Virus record (IMG/VR): IMGVR_UViG_3300020048_000080
DNA length: 64,000 nt
Origin: a virus
Taxonomy: Duplodnaviria > Heunggongvirae > Uroviricota > Caudoviricetes
Reading direction: 5' to 3' (one strand)
Shown here: positions 6,383 to 46,189 of the stretch, piece by piece
Layout: each line of letters opens with the position of its first letter
How positions within the stretch are numbered: position 1 is the first letter of the stretch
Notes under the pieces: generated by a model
Database searches by the model: none
What the model saw: the letters and a program-made list of their open reading frames with translations, nothing else
Told to the model about the DNA's origin: nothing
Made by a program: the position numbers and the translations under genes

Positions 6383-8926
6383 ATGAAATACTCAAAAGAC
6401 GTAGAAAAAGCAATAAAAGAAAGTAAGGAAATTGCGATAGAAATCAATTCTAAAACAATTAGACCTGAACATTTATTTTTAGCATTGATTAATAATCAAG
6501 AATCAAACGCATATAATATTTTATATGAAATGAATCTTAATATTGATGCTATAAAACAAACATTAAAGGATTGGTCAGTAGCAATACAATCACAAATTGG
6601 TATAGTTAAATTAAGAAGTAATGCCGCTATATCATTGGATCCTGAAACTGATAGAATTCTTAAGAGTGCAATGGAATTTGCAAAAAATGTTGAATCAGAA
6701 GAAGTTGATTCTGAACATGTTTTTTATTCTATTTTAGAAAACTCTAATAATTTAGTAACCGAATTATTTAGTAAATCTCCTGATACTTTTAAAAATTTAA
6801 AAGTAAGATTGAAAAATGATGAGGAACAAGAAGAAATTTATAATGATAACGATAATGATTTTGATATGGAACAAGACGCAACCGAAAAAGGAAATAAAAA
6901 TTCAAAAACTAAATTAATAGAACAATTTGGTGTTGAACTTACTAAACTTGCAAGAGAAGGAAAATTAGATCCAGTAGTTGGTCGCAAAACAGAAATTAAA
7001 AGAATTTCTCAAATTCTTTCTCGTAGAAAGAAAAATAATCCAGTTCTTATTGGTGAACCAGGAGTTGGTAAATCTGCAATTGCTGAAGGTATGGCACAAC
7101 TCATTGTAGAAGGTAAAGTACCAGGCAACCTAAAGGATAAAAAGATTTTCACTCTTGAAATGGGATCACTTGTTGCTGGTACTAAATACAGAGGTGAATT
7201 TGAACAAAGATTAAGAGGTATTATCAAAGAAATGGAAGAAAATAAAAATATTATTCTTTTCATTGATGAAATACATACTATAATTGGAGCAGGTTCAGCA
7301 CAAGGATCACTTGACGCTTCAAATATGTTAAAACCAGCACTTTCCCGTGGAAACTTCCAATGTATTGGTGCTACTACACTTGAAGAATATCGTAAGTATA
7401 TTGAGAAAGACGGAGCATTAGAACGTCGTTTTCAAAAGGTTAATGTTGACCCAACATCAAAATCAGAAACACTTGAAATTCTTAAAAATATTAAAGATAA
7501 ATATGAAGAGTATCACTCAGTAACTTATACTGAAGAAGCTCTACAGGCTTGTGTTGATTTGACTGATAAATATATGTCAGAAAAATTTCTTCCAGATAAA
7601 GCTATTGATGCTTTAGATGAAGCTGGTTCAAAGGTTCACGTAAACAGAACAGTTAATGTTCCCAAAAAAATTCAAGAACTTGAAAAGAAAATCAAGAAAG
7701 TTTTTATTGAAAAAGCAAAACTTATTGATGATCAAAAATTTGAAGAAGCCGCAGAAAAAAGAGACTCTGAAAGAGAACTTATTAAAGAATTGGATGTAGA
7801 AAAAGAACTATGGAAAAGTGAACAATTGAAAGTTCGTGATTCTGTTACAAAAGATGATGTTGCTGAAGTTGTTGCATTAATGACAAAAATTCCAGTTGAT
7901 AATGTATCTTCTGATGAAAACAACAAACTCAAACTTATGTCAAATAAGGTAAAGAGTGTTGTTATCGGACAAGATGAAGCAGTTGATAAATTAGTTCGTG
8001 CCGTTAAAAGAGCAAGAATTGGTATCAAGGATCCAACAAAACCAGTAGGTTCATTTATATTCTTGGGACCAACAGGTGTAGGTAAAACATATCTTGCAAA
8101 GATTATGGCAAAGGAACTTTTCGGTTCTGAGGAATCTATGATTCGTATTGATATGAGTGAGTATATGGAAAAACATACTGTATCAAGGTTAGTAGGAGCG
8201 CCTCCGGGATACGTTGGATATGAAGATGGTGGTGAACTTACCGAAGCTGTAAGACGTAGACCATATTCAATTATTCTTCTTGATGAAATTGAAAAAGCAC
8301 ACCCTGATGTTCAAAACATTCTTCTTCAATTACTTGATGATGGTGTATTAACTGATAGTTATGGTCGTAGGGTTGACTTCAAAAATACGATTATTATTAT
8401 GACTTCTAATGCAGGTTCAAGAAAAGTTAAAGATTTTGGTACAGGTATTGGTTTTTCATCATCAGCAAGAAGTGAATCAGTTCAGAAAGATAAAAATGAT
8501 GTGATTGATAAAGAATTGAAAAAAATATTCAGTCCAGAATTTTTAAACCGTATTGATGAAGTTATTATGTTTAACTCATTAGGAAAAGACCAAATTGGTA
8601 AAATTGTTGATGTTGAAGTTAAATCAACTATTCAAAGATTGAAAGATATTGGATATGAAATCAACATTACTCAATCCTTAAAAGATTATCTTTTTGAACA
8701 AGGATATGATGAAAATTTTGGAGCCCGACCACTAAAAAGAGCAATTCAGAAATATATTGAAGATTATATTACTGATGCTATTATCAACGAAGAAGTTAAA
8801 GTTGGTGATAGACTTTCATTAAGATTTGATAAGACTTTGAAAGAAGTTAAATTAATTAAATTATCATTGAAAGATGAAATTGAACCTCAAGGTTTGTTAC
8901 CTATAACAACTGAACCAATTGTCTAA
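6383..8926 (+). CDS. clpA: Clp ATPase ClpA/ClpC type (Clp_N repeats plus two AAA+ modules)
   Basis: N-terminal Clp_N repeats; Walker A motifs 'GEPGVGKSA' and 'GPTGVGKT'; Walker B 'ILFIDEIH' and '[10 protein letters not shown]'; a UVR-like linker '[12 protein letters not shown]' is closer to ClpC. Confidence 0.85.
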
Positions 8927-30409: not shown

Positions 30410-32228
<1,819 letters not shown>

Positions 32229-35328: not shown

Positions 35329-36060
35329 GTGAAATATTTAGAAAAATTTAAAATGATTGAAAATAAGGAACATATAACTTTTAATAAAGAAGATGCTGAT
35401 TTAATTCAGAATTCTTTATATATTGATATGAAAGAAGATGGTGTTGAAAAAGATGATGTAAACTGGATTTATAATGAACTAGAATTAATCAAAAAAGATG
35501 CTGACAATTCTTGTCTTTTCCATATAATAAGAAACTATTACAAATTAACAGAAAGAAATACTATAATTAGATTAGCAATAAAGTTTTTTGATTTAAAATA
35601 TAAAGATGTTATTGAAAAATTCAAAAAAGATAGGAAAAAAGAATTTGCATCATCAAATAATTTTGATACTGAAATTGAATCTGAATTTGTTAACCTTCCA
35701 TATGGTGATAGCACATTAAGTGTACCAAGAAGAATAGGTCATAATTATATTCCAATTAAAATTCTACCATTAGAACAATTAAACACTAAATTTTCAAAAC
35801 ATAGAAGATTAAAAGTTTTTCATCATAAAGGTTTAGAATGTATATCTTGTCCTAAAATAGGTGAATATTTAATTGCAGCAAGAGATAGAGGTGGCGCAAT
35901 TCATATTGATTTATATACAAAAGATTTTGAATTAATGACTATTGATCATATTAAACCAAAAGGAAAAGGTGGAAGTAATGATATAGAGAATCTTGATCCA
36001 ATGTGTCAAACCTGTAATTCAAAGAAAGCAGATACCTACGAAGAAGAAAATATATTATAA
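35329..36060 (+). CDS. HNH endonuclease (leader MKYLEKFK)
   Basis: C-terminal HNH motif 'DHIKPKGKGGSNDIENLDPMCQTCNSKK'. Confidence 0.55.
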   Translation: MKYLEKFKMIENKEHITFNKEDADLIQNSLYIDMKEDGVEKDDVNWIYNELELIKKDADNSCLFHIIRNYYKLTERNTIIRLAIKFFDLKYKDVIEKFKKDRKKEFASSNNFDTEIESEFVNLPYGDSTLSVPRRIGHNYIPIKILPLEQLNTKFSKHRRLKVFHHKGLECISCPKIGEYLIAARDRGGAIHIDLYTKDFELMTIDHIKPKGKGGSNDIENLDPMCQTCNSKKADTYEEENIL

Positions 36061-36094
36061 TTTTTTAATATATACTAAAAAATATTTCAATTTA

Positions 36095-36976
36095 ATGATT
36101 AATGAAGGTGTTTTAAGAAGTCCAAAATGGTTAAGAAATTTTGCTGATTTTGAAATAAATACAGGTGAAGATATTAAAGGTGAGCCGTCAGAAAAAAGAA
36201 AGCGTCAATTAGAGAAAGAGCGTAAAATAAAAGAAGAAGAGAGAAGGATAAAAGAAAAAGAAGAAAGAGAAAGAGAAAGAGAAGAAGAGAGAAAAAGGAA
36301 AGAACAAGAGGAAACTAATATTTTGGTTGATGAATTAATCAAAAATGCAATTTATTTTATAAATAATTATTATAAAAAATGTAACGTAAAAGTAGATGCA
36401 TATAATAATGAAGTTACAATAAGTCACAGTAATCTTAAATTTGATGGTAAAGATTTAAAATTTGAAATCACATTAGAAAATTCAGTTGTAATTCCTAAAT
36501 TTAGATGCTCATTTACTTATAATGGATACATATATACATCCAAATTAAGCGGATTTAATTATACTGATTTCAAAATATTTATACTTCAAGTAATATATCC
36601 ATTTTATTCTAGTGGTGGATATAAATCAAATTCTAATAGTTATGAGGAGTCTAGTAGAAAAGCACGTGAAGAAGAAACTAAAAGAAAAGCAAATGATACT
36701 TATGAAGAATATAAAAAAAGATATTCTTCATCTAATGAAACCGAAGAAGTAAAAAAGAGAAGAAGATTATATAATCTTCTTAAAGAAACTCTTGATGGGT
36801 ATTTAAGAACAATGGATAGAATAAAAGAATGGGAGAAAAAAAATCCAGGAAAAAAACACACCGATAGAGACTCAACAGAAAAAGAAATTGAAGCAGTAGA
36901 AACTAAAATTAAGAATATTAAAGATAAATATAAATTTGAATCTTTAAATCATTTAACTTCTTTTATATTTTATTAA
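36095..36976 (+). CDS. hypothetical protein with an E/R/K-rich low-complexity region; C-terminal domain paralogous to that of 34183..34890
   Basis: The track ORF starts at 35993 inside the HNH gene; the likely start is Met 36095 'MINEGV'. C-terminus 'RRRLYNLLKETLDGYLRTMDRIKEWEKKNPGKKHTDRDSTEKEIEAVETKIKNIKDKYKFE'. Confidence 0.35.
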   Translation: MINEGVLRSPKWLRNFADFEINTGEDIKGEPSEKRKRQLEKERKIKEEERRIKEKEEREREREEERKRKEQEETNILVDELIKNAIYFINNYYKKCNVKVDAYNNEVTISHSNLKFDGKDLKFEITLENSVVIPKFRCSFTYNGYIYTSKLSGFNYTDFKIFILQVIYPFYSSGGYKSNSNSYEESSRKAREEETKRKANDTYEEYKKRYSSSNETEEVKKRRRLYNLLKETLDGYLRTMDRIKEWEKKNPGKKHTDRDSTEKEIEAVETKIKNIKDKYKFESLNHLTSFIFY

Positions 36977-37209
36977 AAGGGTAGGATATTAGTAGCAGTT
37001 GAAACAGTATAATCAATTTTATTTTTATTTAAAATCTTTTCTAAATCTTTTTGATCTTCTGGAACAATTTCCATAACAAATCCTGCTTTTCTATTATGTA
37101 AATAAAAAGTTATTGTATTTTGACCATTTTCTGCGGGATCAAAATTATATTTTCTTTCTTGCTCATTCCACTTTGATGTTATTTCATTCATTTTATCTAA
37201 ATGTTTCAT
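36973..37209 (-). CDS. hypothetical small protein
   Basis: ORF only. Confidence 0.3.
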   Translation of the reverse strand: MKHLDKMNEITSKWNEQERKYNFDPAENGQNTITFYLHNRKAGFVMEIVPEDQKDLEKILNKNKIDYTVSTATNILPF

Positions 37210-37213
37210 ATTG

Positions 37214-37741
37214 TTATAATAATTTTTTTAACCGTTCTATATATTTTTCTAACTTTTTTTTAAATTTTGTACTAGAAATTTCTCCAACTTCCATTGATAA
37301 TTCCTCCAATTCACTACCGATATCTTGTAATTCATCACTTGCTATCAATCCCCTAACATCAACATAATCAACATCTTTTACAATTTCATCTTTTGCAATT
37401 TCTTCTATTTTTTGTTTTTCTTCTCCTGGTTTACATTTAAAATAGTAATAATAATCATCTGATCCCCTTCTGTATTTAGACATTTTGATACCATATTTAT
37501 CTTCAAAGTAATTTACAAAATCTGAACCACCTTTTTCTGAAAATAAATTTTGATAATCAACTCTATATTTACCTGTTTCTTCATCAACATCTTGATATTT
37601 TTTATTATATCTTTTTTCATCATCTTTAAACCTAATGGCAATTAAACCACTCCTATATTTAGGTCTGTAATTTTTTTCCATACGAAGATTATGATTATAT
37701 AAAGGATTTTCTACAGTTTCATATTTTCTTACATGCTTCAT
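37214..37741 (-). CDS. hypothetical protein
   Basis: ORF only. Confidence 0.3.
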   Translation of the reverse strand: MKHVRKYETVENPLYNHNLRMEKNYRPKYRSGLIAIRFKDDEKRYNKKYQDVDEETGKYRVDYQNLFSEKGGSDFVNYFEDKYGIKMSKYRRGSDDYYYYFKCKPGEEKQKIEEIAKDEIVKDVDYVDVRGLIASDELQDIGSELEELSMEVGEISSTKFKKKLEKYIERLKKLL

Positions 37742-37761
37742 GCTTCTATATATTAAATTTT

Positions 37762-38061
37762 TTATAGATTATATTTTTCTGCATCTTTTTTCATAAAATA
37801 ATTTTCTAAATCTTTGTCTGATACTTTTTTATATCTATATCTAGCATTATCTGTTGAACCTGGTGGATCAGTACTTTCTAATTCGTTTACTATATATCCA
37901 CTATAATGTATATCTGGTGGTCCAATTTTACGTAATACTTGAAATATATCGGGATATTCTTCACGTACAGGTGATATACATTTCAAATAAATATAATCAC
38001 CAACTTCTGGTGTGTAGTTGAAATCATCATCCTTATCTTCATATTTTTTAATATATTTCAT
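37762..38061 (-). CDS. KYNL-family small protein (MKYIKKYEDKD..., VGDYIYL, AEKYNL)
   Basis: Family motifs. Confidence 0.45.
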   Translation of the reverse strand: MKYIKKYEDKDDDFNYTPEVGDYIYLKCISPVREEYPDIFQVLRKIGPPDIHYSGYIVNELESTDPPGSTDNARYRYKKVSDKDLENYFMKKDAEKYNL

Positions 38062-38079
38062 AAAATATATATTAATTTT

Positions 38080-38385
38080 CTAATCATATTTATTTACTAA
38101 AGGTTTAATTAGAAGATAAAATGTATAACAAACTATACTTGAAATAAAACCATCAAAAATAAAAAAAATAGAAATCGGAGCCACCGAAAAAACAGGACTA
38201 AACCAAAATATTGATGTTAATAATCCTGAAAAAAATCCAAAACACATTGGACATTTAATCCAATAACCTAAAAAATTTGGATTTATTTTCAATAAAAAGG
38301 TTCTTAAAGGTTTAATTATTTTACTTTGAGTTACAATTGTTGTAAATCCAAGATTTACTAATAAAAATATTATAAAATTTAACAT
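38080..38385 (-). CDS. small integral membrane protein
   Basis: Three hydrophobic segments. Confidence 0.35.
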   Translation of the reverse strand: MLNFIIFLLVNLGFTTIVTQSKIIKPLRTFLLKINPNFLGYWIKCPMCFGFFSGLLTSIFWFSPVFSVAPISIFFIFDGFISSIVCYTFYLLIKPLVNKYD

Positions 38386-38394
38386 AAAAAATAT

Positions 38395-38429
38395 GGGGTA
38401 GCAATGCTACCCCTTTGAAATTTTTTTTT
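38395..38429 (+). terminator. hairpin (ggggtagc-aat-gctacccc) with a T-rich tail, followed by a second hairpin gccctat-aa-atagggc at 38430..38445
   Basis: GC-rich 8-bp stem then 'tttgaaattttttttt'. Confidence 0.45.
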
Positions 38430-38564
38430 GCCCTATAAATAGGGCAAAGTCAACAGCCATCTTTACAATGTGCAGTTGCTCTTAGAAAATATCTAATTCT
38501 TCCTACCATAATTTTTTATTTTTATATATTTTTATTTGTAAATCCTTTTTTGTAATTTTGCTAT

Positions 38565-39065
38565 ATGGAAAATTTTAAAGAAGTATTTAACAACTGGATT
38601 AACTCAAAAACACAATCTCAAGTTGAGGTTATATCAGAAATATGTGAAGAGGTTGGCATTGATCCTAAATCTTGGCTTACTCATTATATTAATCGTCATG
38701 GTGGAGATTGCTCTGGTACACAAATTTTAACTGATATGGGTGAAATGTTCGCATATTATATTGAAACAAAATTTCAAGATCTTTTTTTAAAATTTCTTGA
38801 ACCACGTGGATATAATATTTATAAAGAACCTTATTTAGGACTTGAATTTGATTTAGAAATAAAAAATAAAAAATTATATGCTAAAAAATATCACAAGAAA
38901 AATTTTAAAAAAATGTGTGATAAATTAACATTAGACCAAAAAATAGAATTATCAGAAAATAAATTAATTTCTTACGTTGTATCTCAAACAAATTTAAAAA
39001 TGTTTTCTAAAAAAGAGATAAGATTTTTAAAATTAAAAAAAATAAATGAATATGAACAAATTTGA
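38565..39065 (+). CDS. hypothetical protein
   Basis: ORF only. Confidence 0.3.
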   Translation: MENFKEVFNNWINSKTQSQVEVISEICEEVGIDPKSWLTHYINRHGGDCSGTQILTDMGEMFAYYIETKFQDLFLKFLEPRGYNIYKEPYLGLEFDLEIKNKKLYAKKYHKKNFKKMCDKLTLDQKIELSENKLISYVVSQTNLKMFSKKEIRFLKLKKINEYEQI

Positions 39066-39222
39066 AGCAATAGAATTTATCGTAAATAGTGATTTTGAAT
39101 ACGTTAGTCATGATGATGAATGGGTAGAAGCAGGACTATATTGTTTAATTGAGGGTATAGTAAAAAATAAGAAAGATGCTTACACAAGAGAAGAACTTAT
39201 CAAAATGATGGAAGAAATATAA
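39052..39222 (+). CDS. small hypothetical ORF (56 aa), not in the supplied track
   Basis: Open frame overlapping the stop of the previous gene. Confidence 0.2.
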   Translation: MNKFEAIEFIVNSDFEYVSHDDEWVEAGLYCLIEGIVKNKKDAYTREELIKMMEEI

Positions 39223-39237
39223 AAATAATCAAATACA

Positions 39238-39462
39238 TTGTCATTAAATCCATTAAAGTCTATTAAATCTAGATATACAGCAACATCTTCATCGTTTTTA
39301 GGAATAAAAAATTCAGGAATAACAAACAGTTATATATATGCACCATACATAATAATGGAGACAACTCCAATAATTATTGATAATATGTATAGAATAAGAA
39401 ATCTAAGAAAAGAAAGAAAGAATAAATTAGAAAAAATATGGAAAGATCAGAAGATTTTGTGA
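39238..39462 (+). CDS. hypothetical small protein
   Basis: ORF only. Confidence 0.25.
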   Translation: MSLNPLKSIKSRYTATSSSFLGIKNSGITNSYIYAPYIIMETTPIIIDNMYRIRNLRKERKNKLEKIWKDQKIL

Positions 39463-39728
39463 TATGTAAGAAAACTTATATTGATGGTTCTGGAAAAATT
39501 CGGTATTCTAAAAATATAAGATATACGTTTAATATTGATAATTGTAGTGATGGTGATTTCTATCACGTAGAACATCCATTAACATATAGTAGTGATTCTG
39601 AAGATAAAAAAGGTGTTATTGTTTCAATAGGATTTCTTAAACAGGAATTTAATAAATATTTTATGGATTATAAAATATTTGAAAGAAAAATAAAAATAGA
39701 AAAAATAAATGATACTGAATATAATTAA
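39438..39728 (+). CDS. hypothetical small protein
   Basis: ORF only. Confidence 0.3.
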   Translation: MERSEDFVICKKTYIDGSGKIRYSKNIRYTFNIDNCSDGDFYHVEHPLTYSSDSEDKKGVIVSIGFLKQEFNKYFMDYKIFERKIKIEKINDTEYN

Positions 39729-40146
39729 ATATGGTGATCAAAATTTTGGAAAACTGAAATCACCAAGTGTTGATGTTAAAAAAGAAAATCCATTTTTACA
39801 GCAATTAATAAGTGATATGTATGAAACTCTTGAACATAGTGAGAATGGTATTGGCTTAGCTGCACCACAAGTTGGTAGAAATTTAAACTTGTTTATTATA
39901 AACTTACCAAACTTTAAAGAAGTTTTTATAAATCCTGAAATAAAATTAGAAGGTCTCTCAATACAGTGTAGAGAAGGGTGTTTAAGTTTTCCGGGAATTG
40001 AAGTACCTGTTGATAGAAGACAAAAAGTAAAAGTTAAATACTATAACAGAGACTGGGTTCTTATCATGAGAGAATTTGATGAATTAGTATCAATAGCTAT
40101 ACAACACGAATATGACCATTTAAGAGGAAAATTAATTCTAGATTAA
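39709..40146 (+). CDS. def: peptide deformylase
   Basis: All three PDF motifs are present: 'GIGLAAPQVG', 'EGCLSFPG' and 'QHEYDHLRG'. Confidence 0.9.
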   Translation: MILNIIKYGDQNFGKLKSPSVDVKKENPFLQQLISDMYETLEHSENGIGLAAPQVGRNLNLFIINLPNFKEVFINPEIKLEGLSIQCREGCLSFPGIEVPVDRRQKVKVKYYNRDWVLIMREFDELVSIAIQHEYDHLRGKLILD

Positions 40147-40224
40147 TTTTTTTTTTATAAAAATAAAATCCTATCTTTGTAGAGTTAAAAAAATTAAACT
40201 TTTAAAAAAAATTAACTATATCTT

Positions 40225-40578
40225 ATATTAAAGTTCTTAAAAATATTGAGTGTGGCTGAATAAGGGATAGCCAGTCCCTAAAGCTCAGGTAGAATATCTG
40301 AAAAGGTAATCTCCCTGGTAGTACAAGATAACCACTATAAACCCGAAAAAGACATAGTTGCGCAACTATGATCCTCGTAAGGACAGAACAAATCGTTGAC
40401 ATACTATGCGATGGCTGTATTCTGTTGGAGGTAACCACTCCTCCCAGTTGTTAACAACTTATCTGATCAATTTGTTGGACTGTGGGTGAATAATAGAGAT
40501 TATTTCAAGGCTTGTGAGTACTCGCAATTCTCACCATCAAGTTTAAAGACCCTCCCATTCGTGGGAGGGTTTTTTTAT
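40225..40578 (+). ncRNA. candidate structured RNA: a GC-enriched roughly 350-nt element ending in an intrinsic terminator (gaccctccca-ttc-gtgggagggt followed by T7). Either the leader or riboswitch-like attenuator of the downstream gene, or a stand-alone sRNA
   Basis: GC content is markedly higher than flanking DNA, and several local hairpins are present (ggga...tccc, ggagg-taaccact-cctcc). The terminator ends 25 nt before the ATG at 40603. The only ORF here, 40223..40438 on the minus strand, is implausible. Confidence 0.3.
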
Positions 40579-40602
40579 TTTAAATAAATTAATATATAAC
40601 AT

Positions 40603-41460
40603 ATGAATAAAATTAAAAATTGGAGCAAATTTGTTTTTGAGCAAAATAATATAGATGTTTTAAAATATTTTATATTTGATATTGATGATAATTTATTGTT
40701 TATGGAAACACCATTACATTTTCAACATTTTGAAAATGGTAGATGGATAAATAAAGATATAACAACACAACAATTTGCAGAAATAAGAAAAAAATATCCA
40801 AATAATTACATGGATAATAGTGAATGGAAAGGTGATCCTAAATTTTCATTTATAGAATTTCAAGATTTTGGACCAAGAGGAACAAACGCTTTTCTAGAAG
40901 ATATTAAAAAGTCTATAAAAGATAAAAAATTTGGACCATCATGGGAAATATTTCTTAGTGCAATAAAAGAAGGAAGATTATTTGCAATCGTAACAACAAG
41001 AGGTCATGAACCTGCTACACTTCGTGCTGGTGTAAAATATATTATTGATAATGTTTTAACACCTGACGAAAAACTTAAAATGGAAGCAAAACTCACAAGC
41101 TTTAATCAAATATTTGGAATTGTTACAAATGATTTAATAACTCAATATTTGGGAAGTTGCTTCTTTATGGGATTAAATTCAAAAGCATTTAAAGATGAAT
41201 TCAACTATACACCACAAGGAGATAAGTTAAACCAAGGTAAACAAGATGCTATTAATAAATTTGTTAATTTTATAAAGGAATTTTCTAAAAGAATTGATAT
41301 GTCTGTAAAAATTGGATTCTCAGATGATGATAAAAATTTCTCAAACTCAGCAAAAGAATTATTTATGAATATGGAAAAATCTTTAGATTTTCCCGAAATA
41401 TTTTATGTATTTGATACATCAAATCCAAATATAAAAGGTGGAGTAAAAGTAAAAATATAA
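40603..41460 (+). CDS. HAD-like hydrolase (putative nucleotidase/phosphatase)
   Basis: 'IFDIDDNLLF' (motif I-like DxD), 'AIVTTRGHE' (motif II Thr), 'GFSDDDKN' (motif IV-like). Confidence 0.35.
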   Translation: MNKIKNWSKFVFEQNNIDVLKYFIFDIDDNLLFMETPLHFQHFENGRWINKDITTQQFAEIRKKYPNNYMDNSEWKGDPKFSFIEFQDFGPRGTNAFLEDIKKSIKDKKFGPSWEIFLSAIKEGRLFAIVTTRGHEPATLRAGVKYIIDNVLTPDEKLKMEAKLTSFNQIFGIVTNDLITQYLGSCFFMGLNSKAFKDEFNYTPQGDKLNQGKQDAINKFVNFIKEFSKRIDMSVKIGFSDDDKNFSNSAKELFMNMEKSLDFPEIFYVFDTSNPNIKGGVKVKI

Positions 41461-41461
41461 A

Positions 41462-41749
41462 ATGAAAAAATTTTTCAATGACTTTATAAACGAAAAAAAG
41501 GAAGTTTATAAATTTAAAAAAGGTGATTATGTAAAATACGACATAAATTACACTAATAATAACTATTCAGATAAAATCTTTATGATCGTCAATAGGCAAA
41601 AACTAAGAAAAAATCAAATAAATAATTCAACATATTGTATTTATACAATTGATGCTATTGACGGAAGTAAATCTGTAAGTTCTGTGTATGGATGGGAATT
41701 ACGAGAATTAACTGATTTTGAACTTGCCACATTAAAATATAATTTATGA
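41462..41749 (+). CDS. KYNL-family small protein (KGDYVKY, C-terminus TLKYNL)
   Basis: Family motifs. Confidence 0.45.
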   Translation: MKKFFNDFINEKKEVYKFKKGDYVKYDINYTNNNYSDKIFMIVNRQKLRKNQINNSTYCIYTIDAIDGSKSVSSVYGWELRELTDFELATLKYNL

Positions 41750-41750
41750 T

Positions 41751-41987
41751 ATGAATTGGTTCAAAAAAATTTTTGATTTTAGAAAAATAATTGATGAAGA
41801 TTTAGATAAAATATCTATTTGTGAACAATTAAAAAATGATTATGGAAATCCTGATATCTATGGTCCTTGGACAAAACCTGAGGATTGTGTTGATGAAAAT
41901 GGTAAAATAAAATTTTTTAAAAGTTATTGGCTTATAACGACAAATGATAAATCACCTGAAATAAAAAGCATAAAAAAAGAGAACTGA
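41751..41987 (+). CDS. hypothetical small protein
   Basis: ORF; ATGA-type overlap with the previous gene (KYNL then ATG). Confidence 0.3.
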   Translation: MNWFKKIFDFRKIIDEDLDKISICEQLKNDYGNPDIYGPWTKPEDCVDENGKIKFFKSYWLITTNDKSPEIKSIKKEN

Positions 41988-42006
41988 AAAGTTCTCTTTT
42001 TTTATT
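41970..42006. terminator. bidirectional intrinsic terminator (agagaac-tgaaaa-gttctct)
   Basis: Hairpin flanked by A8 and T7, between convergent genes. Confidence 0.55.
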
Positions 42007-42017
42007 TAAACAAATTT

Positions 42018-42452
42018 TTATATTTTGTCAAAACGATATTGAGTTTCTTGCTGTGAATACATGTATGGATATATTGTACATGTAAATAAAAAATTGCCAA
42101 ATTTATCATAATAAGTGTACATAAAAGTAACATCATAGTCTCTTAAAATTGACATACTTTCTGTATTTTTTACAGAACTTGAAAGAGAGTTTAACATATA
42201 TGATTTCATAGTTTCAAGCATTTGAGGACTATAATCACTTTTAGATTTTAGTAAAGTATATCTGTACTCAATAGTTTTAGGTTCATATACATTAACCATA
42301 TCCAATCTGGTTATCTCGTCAACCATAGTTGGACAATTTGCATTAACAGAAACCGAAGCTTCCTTTAGAAAAGAATAAATTTCCGAAGTACTTTGCGAAT
42401 ATGAAAATATACTAGCAAACACGAAAGTAATAATAAAAAAGAGTTTTTTCAT
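42018..42452 (-). CDS. secreted protein (signal peptide MKKLFFIITFVFASIFSYSQ)
   Basis: Bacteroidetes-style signal peptide. Confidence 0.4.
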   Translation of the reverse strand: MKKLFFIITFVFASIFSYSQSTSEIYSFLKEASVSVNANCPTMVDEITRLDMVNVYEPKTIEYRYTLLKSKSDYSPQMLETMKSYMLNSLSSSVKNTESMSILRDYDVTFMYTYYDKFGNFLFTCTIYPYMYSQQETQYRFDKI

Positions 42453-42567
42453 AAGTTTATTTTTTTGAATTTTTTTAAATATTTTAGTTATAAGTAATAT
42501 AATTTTTATTTTAAAATGTTTTAATAAACTTAGTTTTTTATTAATTATATATTAAAATAAAAAAATT

Positions 42568-43011
42568 ATGAAAAAATTATTTTTAAGTTTTATTATTTTA
42601 TTTTGTATCACCTTGAGTGCTATTTCTCAAAGTTTTATTGGTCAATCATCTACTTCTATTAAGAATAGTGTTTTAAAAGAGTATAGTAGTGGAATCTCAA
42701 ATGTAAGTGATGAAAGTAATATTTTAACTATTTCTTTCCAAGATGGGCATTCTGCTTTGTATTTTACAAATTCAAATGATTTATGTAAATATTATACTTT
42801 ATGCTATCCTATAGCTAATTATAATACAATGAGAAACATGTTACAAACTAATTTTACTAAAGTATATAATTACGAAAAATGGTATTATAAAGATGGTGAA
42901 TACTATATTTACTATAAAATAGTGATAGATAAAAGTGGTACAGTATTTTGGATATTTGTATATCCTGATTTTTATGAAAGTGAAATTGATCAGATAATAA
43001 ACTCTTTATGA
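42568..43011 (+). CDS. secreted protein (signal peptide MKKLFLSFIILFCITLSAISQ)
   Basis: Signal peptide; divergently transcribed from the previous gene. Confidence 0.4.
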   Translation: MKKLFLSFIILFCITLSAISQSFIGQSSTSIKNSVLKEYSSGISNVSDESNILTISFQDGHSALYFTNSNDLCKYYTLCYPIANYNTMRNMLQTNFTKVYNYEKWYYKDGEYYIYYKIVIDKSGTVFWIFVYPDFYESEIDQIINSL

Positions 43012-43076
43012 ATTAAGGATAAGGAAGAGTATAAGGAATATGATAAAGAAAATGATAAGTTAATTAAAACTTGAAA

Positions 43077-43433
43077 TTATAAATTATATTTTTCAGCATT
43101 TATAAGTGTTTCTAATTCTCCCTTATTATCTGACCAATATTTGAAATTTTGTGTTGTGTAGTCCGATGTATTGTTTCTTCTAAAATAATTAGTTTTTGAA
43201 AAAGATAAAATTTCTGGTATATTTTCAAATTTAACAATGTATATCTGACCACTAGGAGTTTTTAAACCATTATGTTGGTCTTTTATATCTACTATTTCTC
43301 CTATATTTTCACTAACAAATCTATTATACACATCCAATGCTTGACTATCTCCTCTAGCGTTATATATTATCACATAATCACCAAGATTAGGTTGTGTACT
43401 GACTGTTTCAAATATTTTAAATCTTGTTATCAT
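43077..43433 (-). CDS. KYNL-family protein (MITRFKIFETV, LGDYVII, KYWSDNKGEL, C-terminus AEKYNL)
   Basis: The track ORF extends to 43484, but the family alignment favours a start at Met 43433. Confidence 0.45.
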   Translation of the reverse strand: MITRFKIFETVSTQPNLGDYVIIYNARGDSQALDVYNRFVSENIGEIVDIKDQHNGLKTPSGQIYIVKFENIPEILSFSKTNYFRRNNTSDYTTQNFKYWSDNKGELETLINAEKYNL

Positions 43434-43511
43434 CATCTTATATATAAAATTGAAAAATATTTTTTTATATGATAACTTTTTCATACTTTTGTACTACCAA
43501 ATATAAAAACT

Positions 43512-45539
43512 ATGACCTTATCAGAAACTTATATCCTATTACATAACGGTGATTTTATCGCTGTTGCAAACGAAATTAAAAGATTAAATAAAAAATATCG
43601 TGATGGTGATCCCGAAATAACAGATTCCGAATACGACCTTTTACTTAAAACATTTAAATCTGTTGATCCGGAGAATGAAATTTTTACATCAGGTGTTATT
43701 GAAGTTGTTGAGGTTGATTCTGATAGAAAAGAAACTTTAAAATATCCAATGTTTTCTTTAGATAAAGAAAGTTCTATTGAAGAAATCAAGAAATGGTTAA
43801 TCAATAAAGGCTTACCTCTCTCTACTGTTTTAGTATGTACCGCAAAATATGACGGTATCTCAGTTTTAAAAAACGAAAAAACTGCTCTTGTTTGGTCAAG
43901 AGGTGATGGTGTTGAAGGTGAAACAATGCACGAACACTATAAAAAATTAAATGCGAAAAACTCCAATATTGAAATTTATACAATTGGAGAAATGATTATT
44001 CCTAAACCAGTTTTTGCAACACATACATTCTATCGTGATAATGGTGAAGCATTTAGAAATGCTAGAAATATGATTGCTGGTCTTAAAAATTCAGATACAG
44101 TTTCAGATGATTTGAAATATGCAAAACACGTTCGTTATGGATTTGCTAGTGAGGATTTTACAATGAATAAATCTGAACAACTTGATTTTATCTCAAAAGA
44201 ATTGAATCCTGTTCCTTATAAAATATTCCATGCTGATGATTTGAAAGTTGATGAGTTAAATGAACTTTTTATTGAATGGGGTAAAGAATATGACATTGAC
44301 GGTCTTGTGTTAGATATTAATGATAAAGATATAAGAAAAAATTTAGGTCGTGAAAGAAATAATAATCCTTGTTACGCAAGAGCATACAAAAATCCCGAAT
44401 GGTCAGTAATAAATACACCTGCATACAAAGATATAGAATGGAATCTAAGTAAAACTAAGGCTTTAAAACCTGTTGTTCTTGTAGAACCATTTGATGTTGA
44501 TGGTGTTACGATATCAAGGGTAACAGGATATAATGCTAAATTTATCCAAGAAAATCAAATTGGTGAAGGCTCTATTTTAGAAGTTATTCGTTCTGGTGGA
44601 GTTATTCCAAAAATTACTGGAGTTATAAAAGTTGGTAAACTTGCTCTTCCAACCCATTGTCCTAGTTGTAATACAAAATTAGAATGGAATGAAAACGCAG
44701 TAGATTTGGTTTGTAATAACAAAGGTTGTGATGAAATTAATTTTCAAAAAGTTGCATTCTTTTTTGTTCGTTTTAATATTGTAGGATTTGCAGAAAAAAC
44801 TATTAAAAAAGTATATGATGCTGGTTATAATACAGTTGGTAAAATTTTATCAATGAGTTTTATTGATATTCAAAAAATTGAAGGTATGGGAAATCTCTCA
44901 GCAACAAAACTTTTGAAAGAATTTGATGAAAAAATTAAACAAGCACCTTTTGAGGTTATTGGACACGCATCAGGTTGCTTTGAAAATATTGGTTCAAGAA
45001 AACTGAAGATGATTAATGATGGAATTAAAGATATGGTTTATGCACCAGGTAAATCTTATCCTCATTTTGATACATTTAAAGATTCCATTGTAAAAATGGA
45101 CTTGGAATTAATTTCAACAATGTTATATTTTAATGATGTTTATAAAGAAATTTTATCAGTATTGAATTCTATAAAAGGTATGTCAGATAAAACTTCTGAA
45201 AACTTTTTAAATGGTCTTATCTGTTTTAATTCTTTTATGAAGGATTTGAACATTACAATTAGTGATGAACCGAAAGTGAAAAAAGAAACTCCAAAAAATA
45301 ATACTAACAATATGAAAACTACTGATTTAAAAGGTCGTGAATTTGTGTTCACAGGCTTCCGTGATGCTGAACTTAAAAGTTTCATTGAAAGTTGTGGTGG
45401 CGTTGTTAAAGATGATATTAGAAAAAGTACAACAGATTTACTTACAAAAAGTCCTGATACTACCTCAGCAAAAGCAAAAAAAGCACAAGCAATAGGTGCA
45501 ACTGTAACACAGGTTGATGATTTTAAACTTTCATTATGA
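43512..45539 (+). CDS. ligA: NAD+-dependent DNA ligase
   Basis: Adenylation motif 'CTAKYDGISV' (KxDG); Zn finger 'CPSCNTKLEWNENAVDLVCNNKGC'; HhH region; C-terminal BRCT 'GREFVFTGF'. Length 675 aa. Confidence 0.85.
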   Translation: MTLSETYILLHNGDFIAVANEIKRLNKKYRDGDPEITDSEYDLLLKTFKSVDPENEIFTSGVIEVVEVDSDRKETLKYPMFSLDKESSIEEIKKWLINKGLPLSTVLVCTAKYDGISVLKNEKTALVWSRGDGVEGETMHEHYKKLNAKNSNIEIYTIGEMIIPKPVFATHTFYRDNGEAFRNARNMIAGLKNSDTVSDDLKYAKHVRYGFASEDFTMNKSEQLDFISKELNPVPYKIFHADDLKVDELNELFIEWGKEYDIDGLVLDINDKDIRKNLGRERNNNPCYARAYKNPEWSVINTPAYKDIEWNLSKTKALKPVVLVEPFDVDGVTISRVTGYNAKFIQENQIGEGSILEVIRSGGVIPKITGVIKVGKLALPTHCPSCNTKLEWNENAVDLVCNNKGCDEINFQKVAFFFVRFNIVGFAEKTIKKVYDAGYNTVGKILSMSFIDIQKIEGMGNLSATKLLKEFDEKIKQAPFEVIGHASGCFENIGSRKLKMINDGIKDMVYAPGKSYPHFDTFKDSIVKMDLELISTMLYFNDVYKEILSVLNSIKGMSDKTSENFLNGLICFNSFMKDLNITISDEPKVKKETPKNNTNNMKTTDLKGREFVFTGFRDAELKSFIESCGGVVKDDIRKSTTDLLTKSPDTTSAKAKKAQAIGATVTQVDDFKLSL

Positions 45540-46189
45540 GAACATCTGAAATAATAGATATTATAAAAAATTGTAAACATTTTTTACCATTAATAATGGA
45601 AATCAATGAGAATTGGTTTTCGTATAAAATTGGAAAGAAAAAATATAATTTAGAAATAACTGACGATTGGAAATATTTTGTTTTTGATTCAGGATTATTT
45701 AAGCATAATATTAAAAATATTAGGGTTTCTATATCTAAAAAATACGCAACAGAAAAAAGTGTTTTATCAAAATTTAGAGAAGTTTTAAGAAGAATAAATA
45801 AATTTCATCAAATTATTTGTAATAAAGAAGAACATATAAAAAAAATTGAACCAATAATAAAATCATACATAAAAACTAATTATTTTATTGAAACTGATCT
45901 TAATCTTAATGTGAATTTTCCGAAAAGTCATTATTTAGTAAACGGAAGGTATAGAACTACTGCATTTGACACAAATAAGGAAAATCCTGAAAATGTTAAA
46001 TATTCTATCTTTATAGTAGTTACAGAAAATAAAGATGATTATCATTTTCAATTTCAGTTTAATGTAAAACAAAAAAAATTGATTCTTCTAAAAAAACTCG
46101 TCAATTATTATATCGCAAAAGATGTAACCAAAATAATAAGAAGTGAAAAATTAAAAAATTTAATGTTAACAAATGAAGAAGATAACTGA
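45536..46189 (+). CDS. hypothetical protein
   Basis: ORF; ATGA overlap with ligA. Confidence 0.3.
   Translation: MRTSEIIDIIKNCKHFLPLIMEINENWFSYKIGKKKYNLEITDDWKYFVFDSGLFKHNIKNIRVSISKKYATEKSVLSKFREVLRRINKFHQIICNKEEHIKKIEPIIKSYIKTNYFIETDLNLNVNFPKSHYLVNGRYRTTAFDTNKENPENVKYSIFIVVTENKDDYHFQFQFNVKQKKLILLKKLVNYYIAKDVTKIIRSEKLKNLMLTNEEDN

What the first reader, a model, noticed from the sequence alone, without database searches (positions are those of the whole stretch)
40147..40602. GC-enriched structured RNA element of roughly 350 nt ending in a strong terminator 25 nt before the next start codon
GC content jumps between def and the HAD-like gene, and there are several GC hairpins and a terminal stem of 8 to 10 bp followed by T7. 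The layout fits a riboswitch or attenuator leader or a phage sRNA. A 'CTGATC' motif and a 'GGGTG' motif are present, but no known riboswitch class could be assigned by eye.
Basis: seen in the sequence. Interest (0 to 1): 0.55.

Follow-up and report, generated by a model that had tools for sequence, protein, structure and literature searches.

The report
manA-like self-assembling phage RNA gene
The GC-rich stretch is a free-standing gene for a roughly 300-nt, highly folded RNA from a large, so far unnamed family found in big phages and some gut Bacteroidales; it is distantly related to the cage-forming manA RNA and, like it, probably sticks to copies of itself rather than acting as a riboswitch.

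Summary
Window 40245-40542 (+) is a 34-40% GC island in 25% GC DNA that folds better than shuffles and is followed by a strong intrinsic terminator (40545-40576).

It is one copy of a widespread RNA family. I recovered 143 hits (100 distinct sequences) from viral, metagenome and genome contigs. No Rfam 15 model reaches its threshold on any copy. On 85 full-length sequences, 67 of 77 proposed base pairs show compensatory changes.

Relatives sit on the same strand as tRNA/tmRNA genes, sometimes abutting them. Others stand alone in Alistipes-type chromosomes. The closest relatives have their own terminators and convergent downstream genes, so this is not a leader or riboswitch for the 285-aa ORF.

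The closest known relative is the manA RNA motif (RF01745). That match is sub-threshold but consistent, and it holds in both directions for the 5' and 3' end modules. manA is a former riboswitch candidate that a 2026 preprint shows forms RNA-only cages.

Two apical loops carry self-complementary cores (window GCGC and UGAUCA) that covary at adjacent nucleotides, which is the signature of symmetric intermolecular kissing loops. The best reading is a new, enlarged manA-like RNA that homo-oligomerises. Its biological role is unknown.

The parts
40233..40240 (+). Promoter-like box GTTCTTAA, 5 nt upstream of P1. Relatives carry TCTTTG at the same place.
   Evidence: A TCTTTG-like box lies within 60 nt upstream in 60 of 85 family members. 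The window has TCTTAA at the same offset as L204 and L183. Its resemblance to the Bacteroidota -7 element TAnnTTTG comes from my own knowledge, so its promoter function is inferred.
40245..40542 (+). The conserved structured RNA (298 nt), a member of the manA-like family.
   Evidence: nhmmer match 40237-40544, E = 5e-68. The window copy keeps 73 of the 77 consensus pairs.
40245..40252 (+). P1, 5' strand. It pairs with 40535-40542 and closes the molecule.
   Evidence: All 7 P1 pairs show compensatory changes (helix 1). Coordinates.
40255..40284 (+). H2: hairpin with a UAA/GAN-type internal loop (GAAUA 40258-40262 opposite UAA 40279-40281) and the conserved loop UAGCCAG. This module is shared with manA.
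   Evidence: helices 2 and 3. manA CM alignment. Module model R1 finds the manA 5' module as its top hit in 4 of 4 cyanophage loci.
40286..40317 (+). H3: hairpin capped by the GNRA tetraloop GAAA (40300-40303).
   Evidence: helices 4-6. Relatives vary the loop to GGGA, GUAA, GAGA and GCAA.
40321..40343 (+). H4, 5' strand of the long-range helix that encloses the central five-way junction. It contains UAA (40338-40340) of the second UAA/GAN-type loop.
   Evidence: helices 7-10; pair 90-280 reads GC37/AU23/UA21.
40349..40375 (+). H5: hairpin whose apex UUGCGCAA (40358-40365) is self-complementary. This is the first proposed symmetric kissing loop.
   Evidence: The core G-N-N'-C reads GGCC 25, GUAC 20, GCGC 6 and GAUC 4, plus the wobble forms GGUC 12 and GGCU 11. 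That makes 78 of 83 self-complementary. Counted once per 80%-identity cluster: 36 strict and 47 with wobble, out of 53.
40376..40382 (+). Invariant junction strand CGUAAG(G).
   Evidence: Invariant in all 85 sequences, though it was part of the search pattern used to collect them.
40384..40424 (+). H6: irregular hairpin with the invariant strands ACAAAUCG (40388-40395) and GAUGGCUGUAU (40410-40420). The 3' part of its loop, GCGA (40408-40411), pairs with the H9 loop.
   Evidence: helices 14-16. Loop-loop covariation: 177-294 reads CG51/AU19/GC6 and 178-293 reads UA76/CG5/AU3.
40427..40444 (+). H7: hairpin GGAGG/CCUCC with the conserved loop UAAnCAnU.
   Evidence: helix 17: 5 of 5 pairs covary.
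40445..40482 (+). H8: variable-length hairpin whose apical loop carries the palindrome UGAUCA (40464-40469). This is the second proposed symmetric kissing loop.
   Evidence: Loop cores across the family: UAGCUA 19, UAAUUA 17, UGAUCA/GAUC 15, GCGC 7, CGCG 3, AGCU 3, UCAUGA/GUCAUGAC 2, GGCC 1. A minority carries GACG(R)-type loops that are not palindromic.
40485..40511 (+). H4, 3' strand, containing GAAUA (40488-40492) of the second UAA/GAN-type loop.
   Evidence: helices 7-10. Coordinates.
40514..40534 (+). H9: terminal hairpin. Its loop UCGC (40522-40525) is complementary to GCGA in the H6 loop. This module is shared with the last hairpin of manA.
   Evidence: helix 20. Model R2 finds the last manA hairpin as its top hit in 4 of 4 cyanophage loci, E = 0.00018-0.056. 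nhmmer result.
40535..40542 (+). P1, 3' strand.
   Evidence: helix 1.
40545..40576 (+). Intrinsic terminator (AAAGACCCUCCCA UUCG UGGGAGGGUUUUU, then U run).
   Evidence: L204 and L183 have different terminator hairpins at the same position. 21 of 81 members have a terminator-like hairpin within 90 nt.
39709..40146 (+). Upstream neighbour: peptide deformylase gene. It is not part of the element.
   Evidence: Pfam PF01327, E = 4e-41.
40603..41460 (+). Downstream neighbour: 285-aa ORF without a family match. It is not conserved next to the RNA elsewhere.

Best explanation
Window 40245-40542 (+) is a free-standing gene for a stable, compactly folded RNA of about 300 nt. It is transcribed from just upstream of helix P1 and ended by the intrinsic terminator at 40545-40576.

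The fold has a closing helix P1 and nine further helices (H2-H9, with H4 enclosing a five-way junction). It includes two UAA/GAN-type internal loops, a GNRA tetraloop and a covarying loop-loop pairing between H6 and H9.

The RNA belongs to a large family that no Rfam model captures at threshold. The family lives mainly in large phage genomes, often co-oriented with and abutting tRNA/tmRNA genes, so many copies are probably released by tRNA-type processing. It also occurs in some Bacteroidales chromosomes. It is a distant, enlarged relative of the manA RNA motif.

The mechanism I commit to is that the RNA acts in trans as a homo-oligomer. The self-complementary apical loops of H5 (UUGCGCAA) and H8 (UGAUCA) each pair with the same loop of another copy. 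The H6-H9 loop pairing may be a third contact, either within one molecule or between molecules. Together these would give a closed ring or cage, as for manA, ROOL and GOLLD.

Shown: the family, the fold, the genomic context, the palindrome covariation and the similarity to manA. Inferred: oligomerisation, the transcript ends and any cargo or cellular role.
For: Family and fold:
- 143 nhmmer hits, of which 100 are distinct copies.
- On 85 full-length sequences, 91.9% of cells are paired, against 38-46% when partners are slid by 1-3 columns.
- 67 of 77 pairs have changes on both sides. The covariation score is 0.697 against 0.22 for shuffles, with 0 of 500 shuffles reaching it.

Context:
- tRNAs within 2 kb are on the same strand in 133 cases and on the opposite strand in 3. 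31 of 100 copies have a tRNA or tmRNA within 500 nt.
- Abutting examples: L245 (11 nt upstream, 2 nt downstream), L238 (28 and 17 nt), L031 (21 and 9 nt), L160 (tmRNA 22 nt downstream).
- Stand-alone chromosomal copies occur in Alistipes-type contigs.

Self-complementary loops:
- All four possible G-N-N'-C palindromes occur in H5. 78 of 83 cores are self-complementary, or 47 of 53 when each type is counted once per cluster. A rough binomial p is about 1e-14, not corrected for relatedness.
- H8 shows at least seven different palindromic cores.
- The two loops vary independently of each other.
- Covariation at adjacent loop nucleotides is the criterion used for the intermolecular kissing loops of OLE and GOLLD in PMC12286853.

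Relation to manA:
- The RF01745 model hits the family at the right place and strand in the window (17.7 bits), L132 (19.6), L183 (26), L204 (33.0, E = 5e-7), L173 (37.9) and 17 of 20 further loci.
- Module models built only from this family find the 5' module and the last hairpin of genuine cyanophage manA RNAs as the top hit in 8 of 8 cases.
- manA RNAs form octamers, decamers and a 60-mer cage through kissing loops.
Against: - No experiment supports any of this. Oligomerisation is inferred from sequence patterns alone.
- About 12 of 85 members lack a palindrome in H8 (GACG-type loops), and 5 of 83 lack one in H5.
- In H5 the palindrome continues the stem, so part of the signal could come from selection or mutation acting on a perfect inverted repeat.
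- Palindromic tetranucleotides such as GATC, GGCC and GCGC are also typical restriction or methylation sites, which would be a DNA-level explanation.
- The published manA assemblies use heterotypic loop pairs (L5-L7', L8-L9'), not homotypic ones. The analogy is therefore of kind, not of detail.
- Similarity to manA stays below Rfam's gathering score (at most 37.9 against 55.2). The central domains could not be aligned with confidence (low posterior probabilities).
- The family was collected with patterns containing CGUAAG, ACAAAUCG and GAUGGCUG, so the invariance of those blocks is partly due to how the set was gathered.
Confidence: 0.6

Rival explanations
1. Cis-regulatory leader (riboswitch or attenuator). 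The fold would sense a ligand and control read-through of the terminator into the downstream 285-aa ORF.
For: - The RNA lies directly upstream of a same-strand ORF, with a terminator about 26 nt before its ATG.
- Its relative manA was originally proposed as a riboswitch candidate found in 5' UTRs.
Against: - The downstream gene is not conserved. L204 and L183 have convergent genes after their own terminators.
- Many copies are flanked by tRNAs or a tmRNA.
- The Alistipes copies lie between opposite-strand genes.
- P1 closes before the terminator, and I found no alternative pairing that overlaps it.
- No relative of the 285-aa ORF was found in viral contigs.
- No Rfam riboswitch matches.
Confidence: 0.06
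2. A monomeric, trans-acting structured RNA, such as a decoy or regulator tied to tRNA or translation biology, or an anti-defence RNA. The palindromic loops would then reflect DNA-level constraints (restriction or methylation sites, protein operators) or simply perfect inverted repeats.
For: - There is a strong association with tRNA/tmRNA arrays and with phages carrying suppressor tRNAs.
- The palindromes include typical restriction or methylase sites.
- A minority of members lack the H8 palindrome.
Against: - The palindromes switch between all four G-N-N'-C types and at least seven H8 cores while staying at the apex of covarying RNA hairpins.
- The wobble forms GGUC and GGCU are self-complementary only at the RNA level.
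- The related manA RNAs are experimentally multimeric.
Confidence: 0.18
3. The RNA subunit of a ribonucleoprotein. Candidates are a Y-RNA-like partner of the TROVE/Ro60-type protein encoded nearby in some phages, or a phi29-pRNA-like ring on a packaging motor.
For: - A TROVE-domain protein (PF05731, E = 1e-14) lies about 1.5 kb downstream in 11 loci, and an AAA ATPase lies upstream in 13 loci.
- From my own knowledge, phi29 pRNA also multimerises through loop-loop pairs.
Against: - Those neighbours are confined to one or two clades. No protein neighbour is shared across the family.
- Chromosomal Alistipes copies have unrelated neighbours.
- No YrlA or Y RNA model matches the RNA itself.
Confidence: 0.1
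4. A tRNA-processing ribozyme, that is a divergent RNase P RNA encoded to mature the phage tRNA arrays.
For: The RNA sits inside tRNA arrays and next to a tmRNA gene, and the window also encodes a CCA-adding enzyme.
Against: - No RNase P model matches, even at E <= 10.
- The helix order (P1, two hairpins, a long-range helix enclosing a five-way junction, a terminal hairpin) does not fit the P1-P2-P3-P4 core of RNase P. I found no P4-type pseudoknot or CR-I/CR-V blocks (compared with my own knowledge of RNase P).
Confidence: 0.04

Closest known systems
manA RNA motif (Rfam RF01745; Weinberg et al. 2010, PMC2864571; cryo-EM preprint 10.64898/2026.07.01.735769)
   Same: - It is phage-borne.
- A helix joining the 5' and 3' ends closes the molecule.
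- It has the same 5' module, GUGnCUGAAUAA-hairpin-UAAnG (a UAA/GAN-type loop).
- It has the same terminal hairpin next to the closing helix (UUGUnGGUAnnCAGGAAUCCnACC).
- It contains a GNRA hairpin.
- A CUG-containing loop faces the CAG of the terminal loop.
- Sequence and structure matches hold in both directions.
- manA is shown experimentally to multimerise through kissing loops.
   Different: - This family is about 300 nt against about 175-190 nt.
- The central domain differs and carries extra helices: the H4 long-range helix with a second UAA/GAN loop, H7 and H8.
- Scores never reach the Rfam gathering cut-off (at most 37.9 against 55.2 bits).
- The predicted contacts here are homotypic palindromic loops, while the published manA contacts are heterotypic.
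- The hosts and habitats differ: large phages of gut, rumen, freshwater and soil samples and Bacteroidales chromosomes, often in tRNA arrays, rather than T4-like cyanophages and marine samples in apparent 5' UTRs.
ROOL (RF03087) and GOLLD (RF02032) RNAs
   Same: - They are phage or prophage RNAs often found near tRNA islands.
- They have complex folds of unknown function.
- They form homo-oligomeric cages held by kissing loops, some of them symmetric with palindrome covariation.
- In L217 a partial GOLLD match lies directly upstream of this RNA.
   Different: - There is no sequence or structure match of this RNA to either model.
- This RNA is half to a third of their size.
Bacteriophage T4 tRNA-cluster stable RNAs (species 1 and 2) (my own knowledge)
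   Same: They are stable non-tRNA RNAs encoded within, and co-processed from, a phage tRNA gene cluster, and their function is unknown.
   Different: They are much smaller. No similarity was tested or is known, and no multimerisation has been reported.
phi29 pRNA (my own knowledge)
   Same: It is a phage RNA that forms rings through intermolecular loop-loop pairing.
   Different: - pRNA uses two mutually complementary loops, not self-complementary ones.
- It binds the portal of small podoviruses.
- No similarity was found.

Membership tests
manA RNA motif (RF01745) | Scores at or above the Rfam gathering cut-off (55.2 bits) with the family covariance model. | tested here: not met
   Window 17.7 bits, L132 19.6, L183 26, L204 33.0. 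The best of 20 further loci is 37.9.
manA RNA motif (RF01745) | The 5' module GUGnCUGAAUAA - hairpin - UAAgG immediately after the 5' strand of the closing helix. | tested here: met
   High-posterior alignment. Model R1, built from this family only, finds this module as the top hit in 4 of 4 cyanophage manA loci, E = 0.002-0.008.
manA RNA motif (RF01745) | A terminal hairpin with loop GUAnnCAGGAAUC directly before the 3' strand of the closing helix. | tested here: met
   Family consensus UUGUGGGUAGUCAGGAAUCCCACC. Model R2 gives the top hit in 4 of 4 manA loci. The window itself carries a variant loop, GUACUCGCAAUUC, which co-varies with its H6 partner.
manA RNA motif (RF01745) | Overall size of about 190 nt, with a central stem enclosing three hairpins (loops GUGGUG, GAAA and uaACCA). 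| tested here: not met
   The family is about 300 nt with a different central five-way junction. The manA model aligns there only with low posterior probability.
manA RNA motif (RF01745) | Position in apparent 5' UTRs of mannose/fructose, nucleotide-synthesis, ibpA or photosynthesis genes of cyanophages and marine bacteria. | tested here: not met
   Contexts here are tRNA arrays, stand-alone genes with terminators, or Bacteroidales chromosomes. One coincidence: a ManC-like NTP_transferase gene is the divergent neighbour in the Alistipes loci.
manA RNA motif (RF01745) | Forms discrete RNA-only oligomers through kissing loops. | not testable with these tools
   Only indirect evidence is available: palindrome covariation in two loops.
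ROOL / GOLLD ornate phage RNAs | A match to RF03087 or RF02032. | tested here: not met
   The RNA gets no hit even at E <= 10.
ROOL / GOLLD ornate phage RNAs | Encoded in phages or prophages near tRNA islands. | tested here: met
   In the window itself the nearest tRNAs are 21.8 kb away.
Riboswitch / transcription-attenuation leader | A conserved aptamer consistently upstream of a related set of genes, with an expression platform that competes with the aptamer fold. | tested here: not met
   Downstream genes are unrelated, convergent or tRNAs. P1 is complete before the terminator.
Bacterial RNase P RNA | The P1-P2-P3-P4 core with conserved CR-I/CR-V sequences, and a match to the RNase P models. 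| tested here: not met
   There are no RNase P hits at E <= 10. The helix order is incompatible. The comparison with RNase P anatomy rests on my own knowledge.
Intrinsic (Rho-independent) terminator | A G+C-rich hairpin followed by a U run at the 3' end of the transcript. | tested here: met
   Stem 40545-40574 with 13 pairs, then T7. The closest relatives have equivalent but different hairpins.

The most novel reading that the evidence does not exclude
This family would be a new class of natural RNA-only closed assembly, a ring or cage. It would be built from a ~300-nt protomer with two two-fold (self-complementary) kissing interfaces plus a third, heterotypic H6-H9 loop contact that may be intermolecular. 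That geometry differs from the pentamer-based manA cages. The RNA would be encoded and co-processed inside the tRNA islands of huge phages and borrowed by some gut Bacteroidales, possibly to enclose or organise tRNAs or other translation components during infection.
Probability: 0.35. Interest if true: 0.8.

Novelty: new variant of a known kind. Interest (0 to 1): 0.66.

Why it matters
Natural RNA-only cages (ROOL, GOLLD and now manA) are a very recent discovery, and their function is unknown. This family adds four things:

- It is a widespread relative of manA, with at least 100 distinct copies from gut, rumen, freshwater and soil samples.
- Its fold has strong covariation support.
- It has a different set of predicted contacts (two homotypic kissing loops), which can be tested directly in vitro.
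- It has informative contexts: it is co-oriented with and abuts tRNA/tmRNA genes in large and recoded phages, and it occurs as a chromosomal gene in Alistipes-type bacteria, which may be cultivable.

The result also suggests that manA-type RNAs are not riboswitches of mannose genes. They would instead be one branch of a broader family of self-assembling phage RNAs, which current Rfam models miss.

Tried and rejected
- Rfam at gathering threshold on the window and on 16 loci found nothing on the RNA. Low-stringency scans gave only terminator look-alikes, apart from manA.
- ARAGORN found no tRNA or tmRNA at the site.
- Megablast of 10 kb around the site against phages found no match. Distant blastn gave only one weak hit, which turned out to be a true homologue in a 735-kb uncultured phage.
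- A search for relatives of the downstream 285-aa ORF in viral contigs found none.
- The loose pattern ACAAATCGN{8,20}GATGGCTG returned mostly chance hits and had to be filtered with an HMM.
I used nhmmer, MAFFT and my own mutual-information script instead.
- I considered RNase P, tmRNA, SRP, 6S, group I intron, Y RNA and cobalamin or lysine riboswitches. All were rejected on helix order and the absence of model hits.
- Protein coding was not tested with a dedicated method. The 71-aa ORF on the - strand (40223-40438) and the 33-aa ORFs are unlikely to be genes, given the compensatory base-pair pattern and the variable-length loop insertions across the family.
- Literature searches by conserved sequence strings and by keywords found no description of this family.
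Full report
**1. The observation**

The interval between the peptide deformylase gene (39709-40146; Pfam PF01327, E = 4e-41) and the next ORF (40603-41460) contains a clear GC island. GC is 0.34-0.405 in 200-nt windows against 0.20-0.30 on both sides. The + strand of 40240-40580 folds at -96.7 kcal/mol against -80 +/- 5.1 for dinucleotide shuffles (z = -3.26). The - strand is unremarkable (z = -1.33). One terminator-like site is present, a 13-pair stem at 40545-40574 followed by T7, and 26 bases separate the end of the T run from the ATG. The first ~100 nt of the reported interval are an AT-rich spacer.

**2. It is a member of a large family**

Rfam at gathering thresholds finds only five tRNA-Leu genes in the window, far from the site, and ARAGORN agrees. 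A weak blastn hit led to a 735-kb uncultured phage (LR756501.1). By eye, the homology there extends over the whole element and includes compensatory changes.

Pattern scans with the conserved blocks recovered the following:
- 15 loci from viral contigs, and more from a looser scan;
- 7 from one-genome-per-species contigs: Alistipes sp. CAG:514, Bacteroidales and Muribaculaceae MAGs, and one Saccharibacteria bin;
- 107 from metagenomes of human gut, rumen, freshwater, soil and sediment.

An HMM built from the first members finds 143 copies in the held loci and only one in the window. These give 100 distinct sequences, of which 85 are full length, falling into 43 clusters at 80% identity. The closest relatives of the window copy, L204 and L183, are 78-80% identical to it. 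Most others are 50-62% identical.

**3. The fold**

RNAalifold on 11 and then on 85 sequences gives the same architecture:
- Helix P1 joins the two ends.
- P1 encloses H2, a hairpin with an internal loop GAAnA/UAA.
- It encloses H3, a hairpin with a GNRA tetraloop.
- It encloses a long-range helix H4, which carries a second GAAUA/UAA internal loop and in turn encloses a five-way junction (H5, the invariant strand CGUAAG, H6, H7, H8).
- It encloses the terminal hairpin H9.

On alignment A2, 91.9% of cells form standard pairs, against 38-46% when partners are slid by 1-3 columns. 67 of 77 pairs show changes on both sides. The covariation score is 0.697 against 0.22 in shuffles, with 0 of 500 shuffles reaching it.

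My mutual-information scan added several covarying pairs:
- long-range pairs 90-280 and 113-151;
- a loop-loop pairing between the 3' part of the H6 loop and the H9 loop, where 177-294 reads CG51/AU19/GC6 and 178-293 reads UA76/CG5/AU3.

The window copy keeps 73 of the 77 consensus pairs. In it the loop-loop pair is GCGA (40408-40411) with UCGC (40522-40525). I identify the two GAAnA/UAA loops as UAA/GAN motifs from my own knowledge of that motif, not from a test.

**4. Context**

The RNA is not a leader. The closest relatives have their own, different terminators at the same position, followed by convergent genes.

Many copies lie in tRNA arrays:
- Of 100 distinct copies, 31 have a tRNA or tmRNA within 500 nt and 46 within 2 kb.
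- Those tRNAs are on the same strand in 133 cases and on the opposite strand in 3.
- Some copies are abutted on both sides: L245 (tRNA-Pro 11 nt upstream, tRNA-Ala 2 nt downstream), L238 and L031.
- In L160 the RNA is followed after 22 nt by a tmRNA gene. In L004 it lies two genes from one.

About 28 human-gut loci are GC-rich bacterial chromosome. There the RNA stands between a divergent ManC-like NTP_transferase gene and a convergent GH95 gene, with rpmE nearby. No protein neighbour is shared across the family.

A TCTTTG-like box lies within 60 nt upstream in 60 of 85 copies, mostly just upstream of P1. The window has GTTCTTAA at the same offset as the box in L204 and L183. The box resembles the Bacteroidota -7 promoter element, a comparison that rests on my own knowledge.

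The window itself encodes a ClpB-like ATPase, NAPRTase, PurA, a CCA-adding enzyme, an NAD-dependent ligase and a hybrid histidine kinase in 25% GC DNA. That gene set fits a very large phage, but I did not establish this.

**5. Closest known family**

At low stringency the Rfam manA model (RF01745) hits the RNA at the right place and strand again and again. The scores are 17.7 bits for the window, 19.6 for L132, 26 for L183, 33.0 for L204 (E = 5e-7), and 15.6-37.9 for 17 of 20 further loci. All are below the gathering score of 55.2.

The alignment is confident only for the 5' module (GUGnCUGAAUAA-hairpin-UAAnG) and for one hairpin. To check the relation in the other direction, I fetched genuine manA RNAs from T4-like cyanophages:
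- The HMM of this family aligns its H9 to the last manA hairpin, and its UAA/GAN module to the manA 5' end.
- Two small covariance models built only from this family (P1/H2 and H9/P1') find exactly these two manA modules as the top hit in all four loci. E-values are 0.002-0.008 and 0.0002-0.06 in 25 kb searched.

The two families thus share their closing helix and both terminal modules. This family is about 1.6 times longer and has a different central domain.

manA was described in 2010 as a riboswitch candidate in apparent 5' UTRs of cyanophage and marine genes (PMC2864571). A July 2026 preprint reports that manA RNAs form RNA-only octamers, decamers and a 60-subunit icosahedral cage held by intermolecular kissing loops (10.64898/2026.07.01.735769).

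**6. Evidence for self-association**

The apex of H5 reads U-U-G-N-N'-C-A-A.
- The inner four bases are GGCC (25), GUAC (20), GCGC (6, including the window) and GAUC (4), which are all four possible palindromes.
- The RNA-level wobble forms GGUC (12) and GGCU (11) also occur.
- In total 78 of 83 cores are self-complementary.
- Counted once per type and 80%-identity cluster, 36 of 53 are strict palindromes and 47 of 53 are self-complementary with wobble. The expectations are 25% and 37.5%, and a rough binomial p is 6e-11 and 1e-14. These values are not corrected for relatedness.

The apical loop of H8 carries UAGCUA (19), UAAUUA (17), UGAUCA/GAUC (15, including the window), GCGC (7), CGCG, AGCU, UCAUGA and GGCC. 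About a dozen members have a GACG-type loop that is not palindromic.

The two loops vary independently and are not complementary to each other. Adjacent nucleotides of one loop cannot pair with each other within one chain. Kretsch et al. use exactly this kind of covariation (GGCC to GAUC or AGCU; GC to CG) as evidence for the symmetric intermolecular kissing loops seen in the OLE and GOLLD cryo-EM structures (PMC12286853).

Two independent two-fold contacts per protomer, plus the H6-H9 loop pairing (which covariation cannot assign to cis or trans), would allow closed rings or cages.

**7. Verdict**

The finding is a real, free-standing, terminator-ended gene for a complex-folded RNA. It belongs to a widespread family that Rfam does not capture and that I could not find described.

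It is best filed as a new, enlarged variant of the manA kind of phage RNA. It is not a member of RF01745, because the score, size, central domain and context criteria are not met. The most likely mode of action is homo-oligomerisation through two self-complementary kissing loops. I put this at about 0.6 overall: about 0.9 for the family, the fold and the stand-alone gene, and about 0.6 for oligomerisation. The cellular role is unknown.

The riboswitch or leader reading is not supported. The RNase P, RNP and monomeric-decoy readings remain possible at low to moderate probability.

Noticed in passing
window 62366-63572: There are five tRNA-Leu genes with four different anticodons (taa twice, aag, tag, caa). 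They form two groups separated by a 237-aa ORF (62591-63304). This is an unusual single-amino-acid tRNA cluster.
   Followed up: no
window 4385-5623, 6383-8926, 18826-20316, 23448-24638, 30701-31897, 43512-45539: The 25% GC, gene-dense DNA, with most ORFs on one strand, encodes NAPRTase, a ClpB-like ATPase, a hybrid histidine kinase with a receiver domain, a CCA-adding enzyme, adenylosuccinate synthetase and an NAD-dependent ligase. This gene set suggests a very large phage. Megablast of 36000-46000 against the phage collection found no match.
   Followed up: partly
L217 1-221 (RNA family copy at 247-619): A partial match to the 3' part of GOLLD RNA (RF02032, 45 bits, E = 6e-9, cut off by the contig end) lies directly upstream of the manA-like RNA on the same strand. 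Two putative self-assembling RNAs would thus sit side by side.
   Followed up: no
L185 2652-4079 and 10 further loci; L140 148-269: A TROVE-domain (Ro60-like) protein with a vWA-type DVSGSM motif is encoded about 1.5 kb downstream of the RNA in one phage clade. A weak YrlA (Y RNA-like) hit (37.5 bits) overlaps tRNA genes in L140.
   Followed up: partly
L001 600-2000 (LR756501.1), L002, L008, L012, L013: In the 735-kb phage and its relatives the RNA sits in an ORF-poor region of about 1.4 kb. Further conserved non-coding blocks lie upstream (cttaatacgacgaatgtcgtccc) and downstream (CCTTCAGAAAG ... terminator). These may be additional RNAs.
   Followed up: no
L140/L156 (74 nt upstream of the RNA), L147, L159, L195, L182, L237, L026: tRNAs with anticodon CUA lie close to the RNA in several gut and rumen phage contigs that carry up to 36 tRNAs. 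ARAGORN calls them 'tRNA-Pyl', but they are likely amber suppressors, which would point to stop-codon-recoded phages.
   Followed up: no
L132, L133, L137, L139, L164, L240, L241 and similar loci: In Alistipes-type chromosomes the divergent upstream neighbour of the RNA is a ManC-like NTP_transferase (mannose-1-phosphate guanylyltransferase type). This is a curious echo of the mannose genes that gave manA its name.
   Followed up: partly
It does contain an FDIDDN stretch reminiscent of a DxD motif.
   Followed up: partly
family H9 loop, alignment A4 (window 40519-40529): The H9 loop comes in discrete variants: GUAGUCAGGAAUC, GUAAUCAUUAAUC, and GUA(C/U)UC(GC/UC)AAnUC. Two loop positions switch together between G..G and A..U (kept columns 290 and 295: GG 51, AU 25). 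This is not explained by the simple loop-loop pairing.
   Followed up: no
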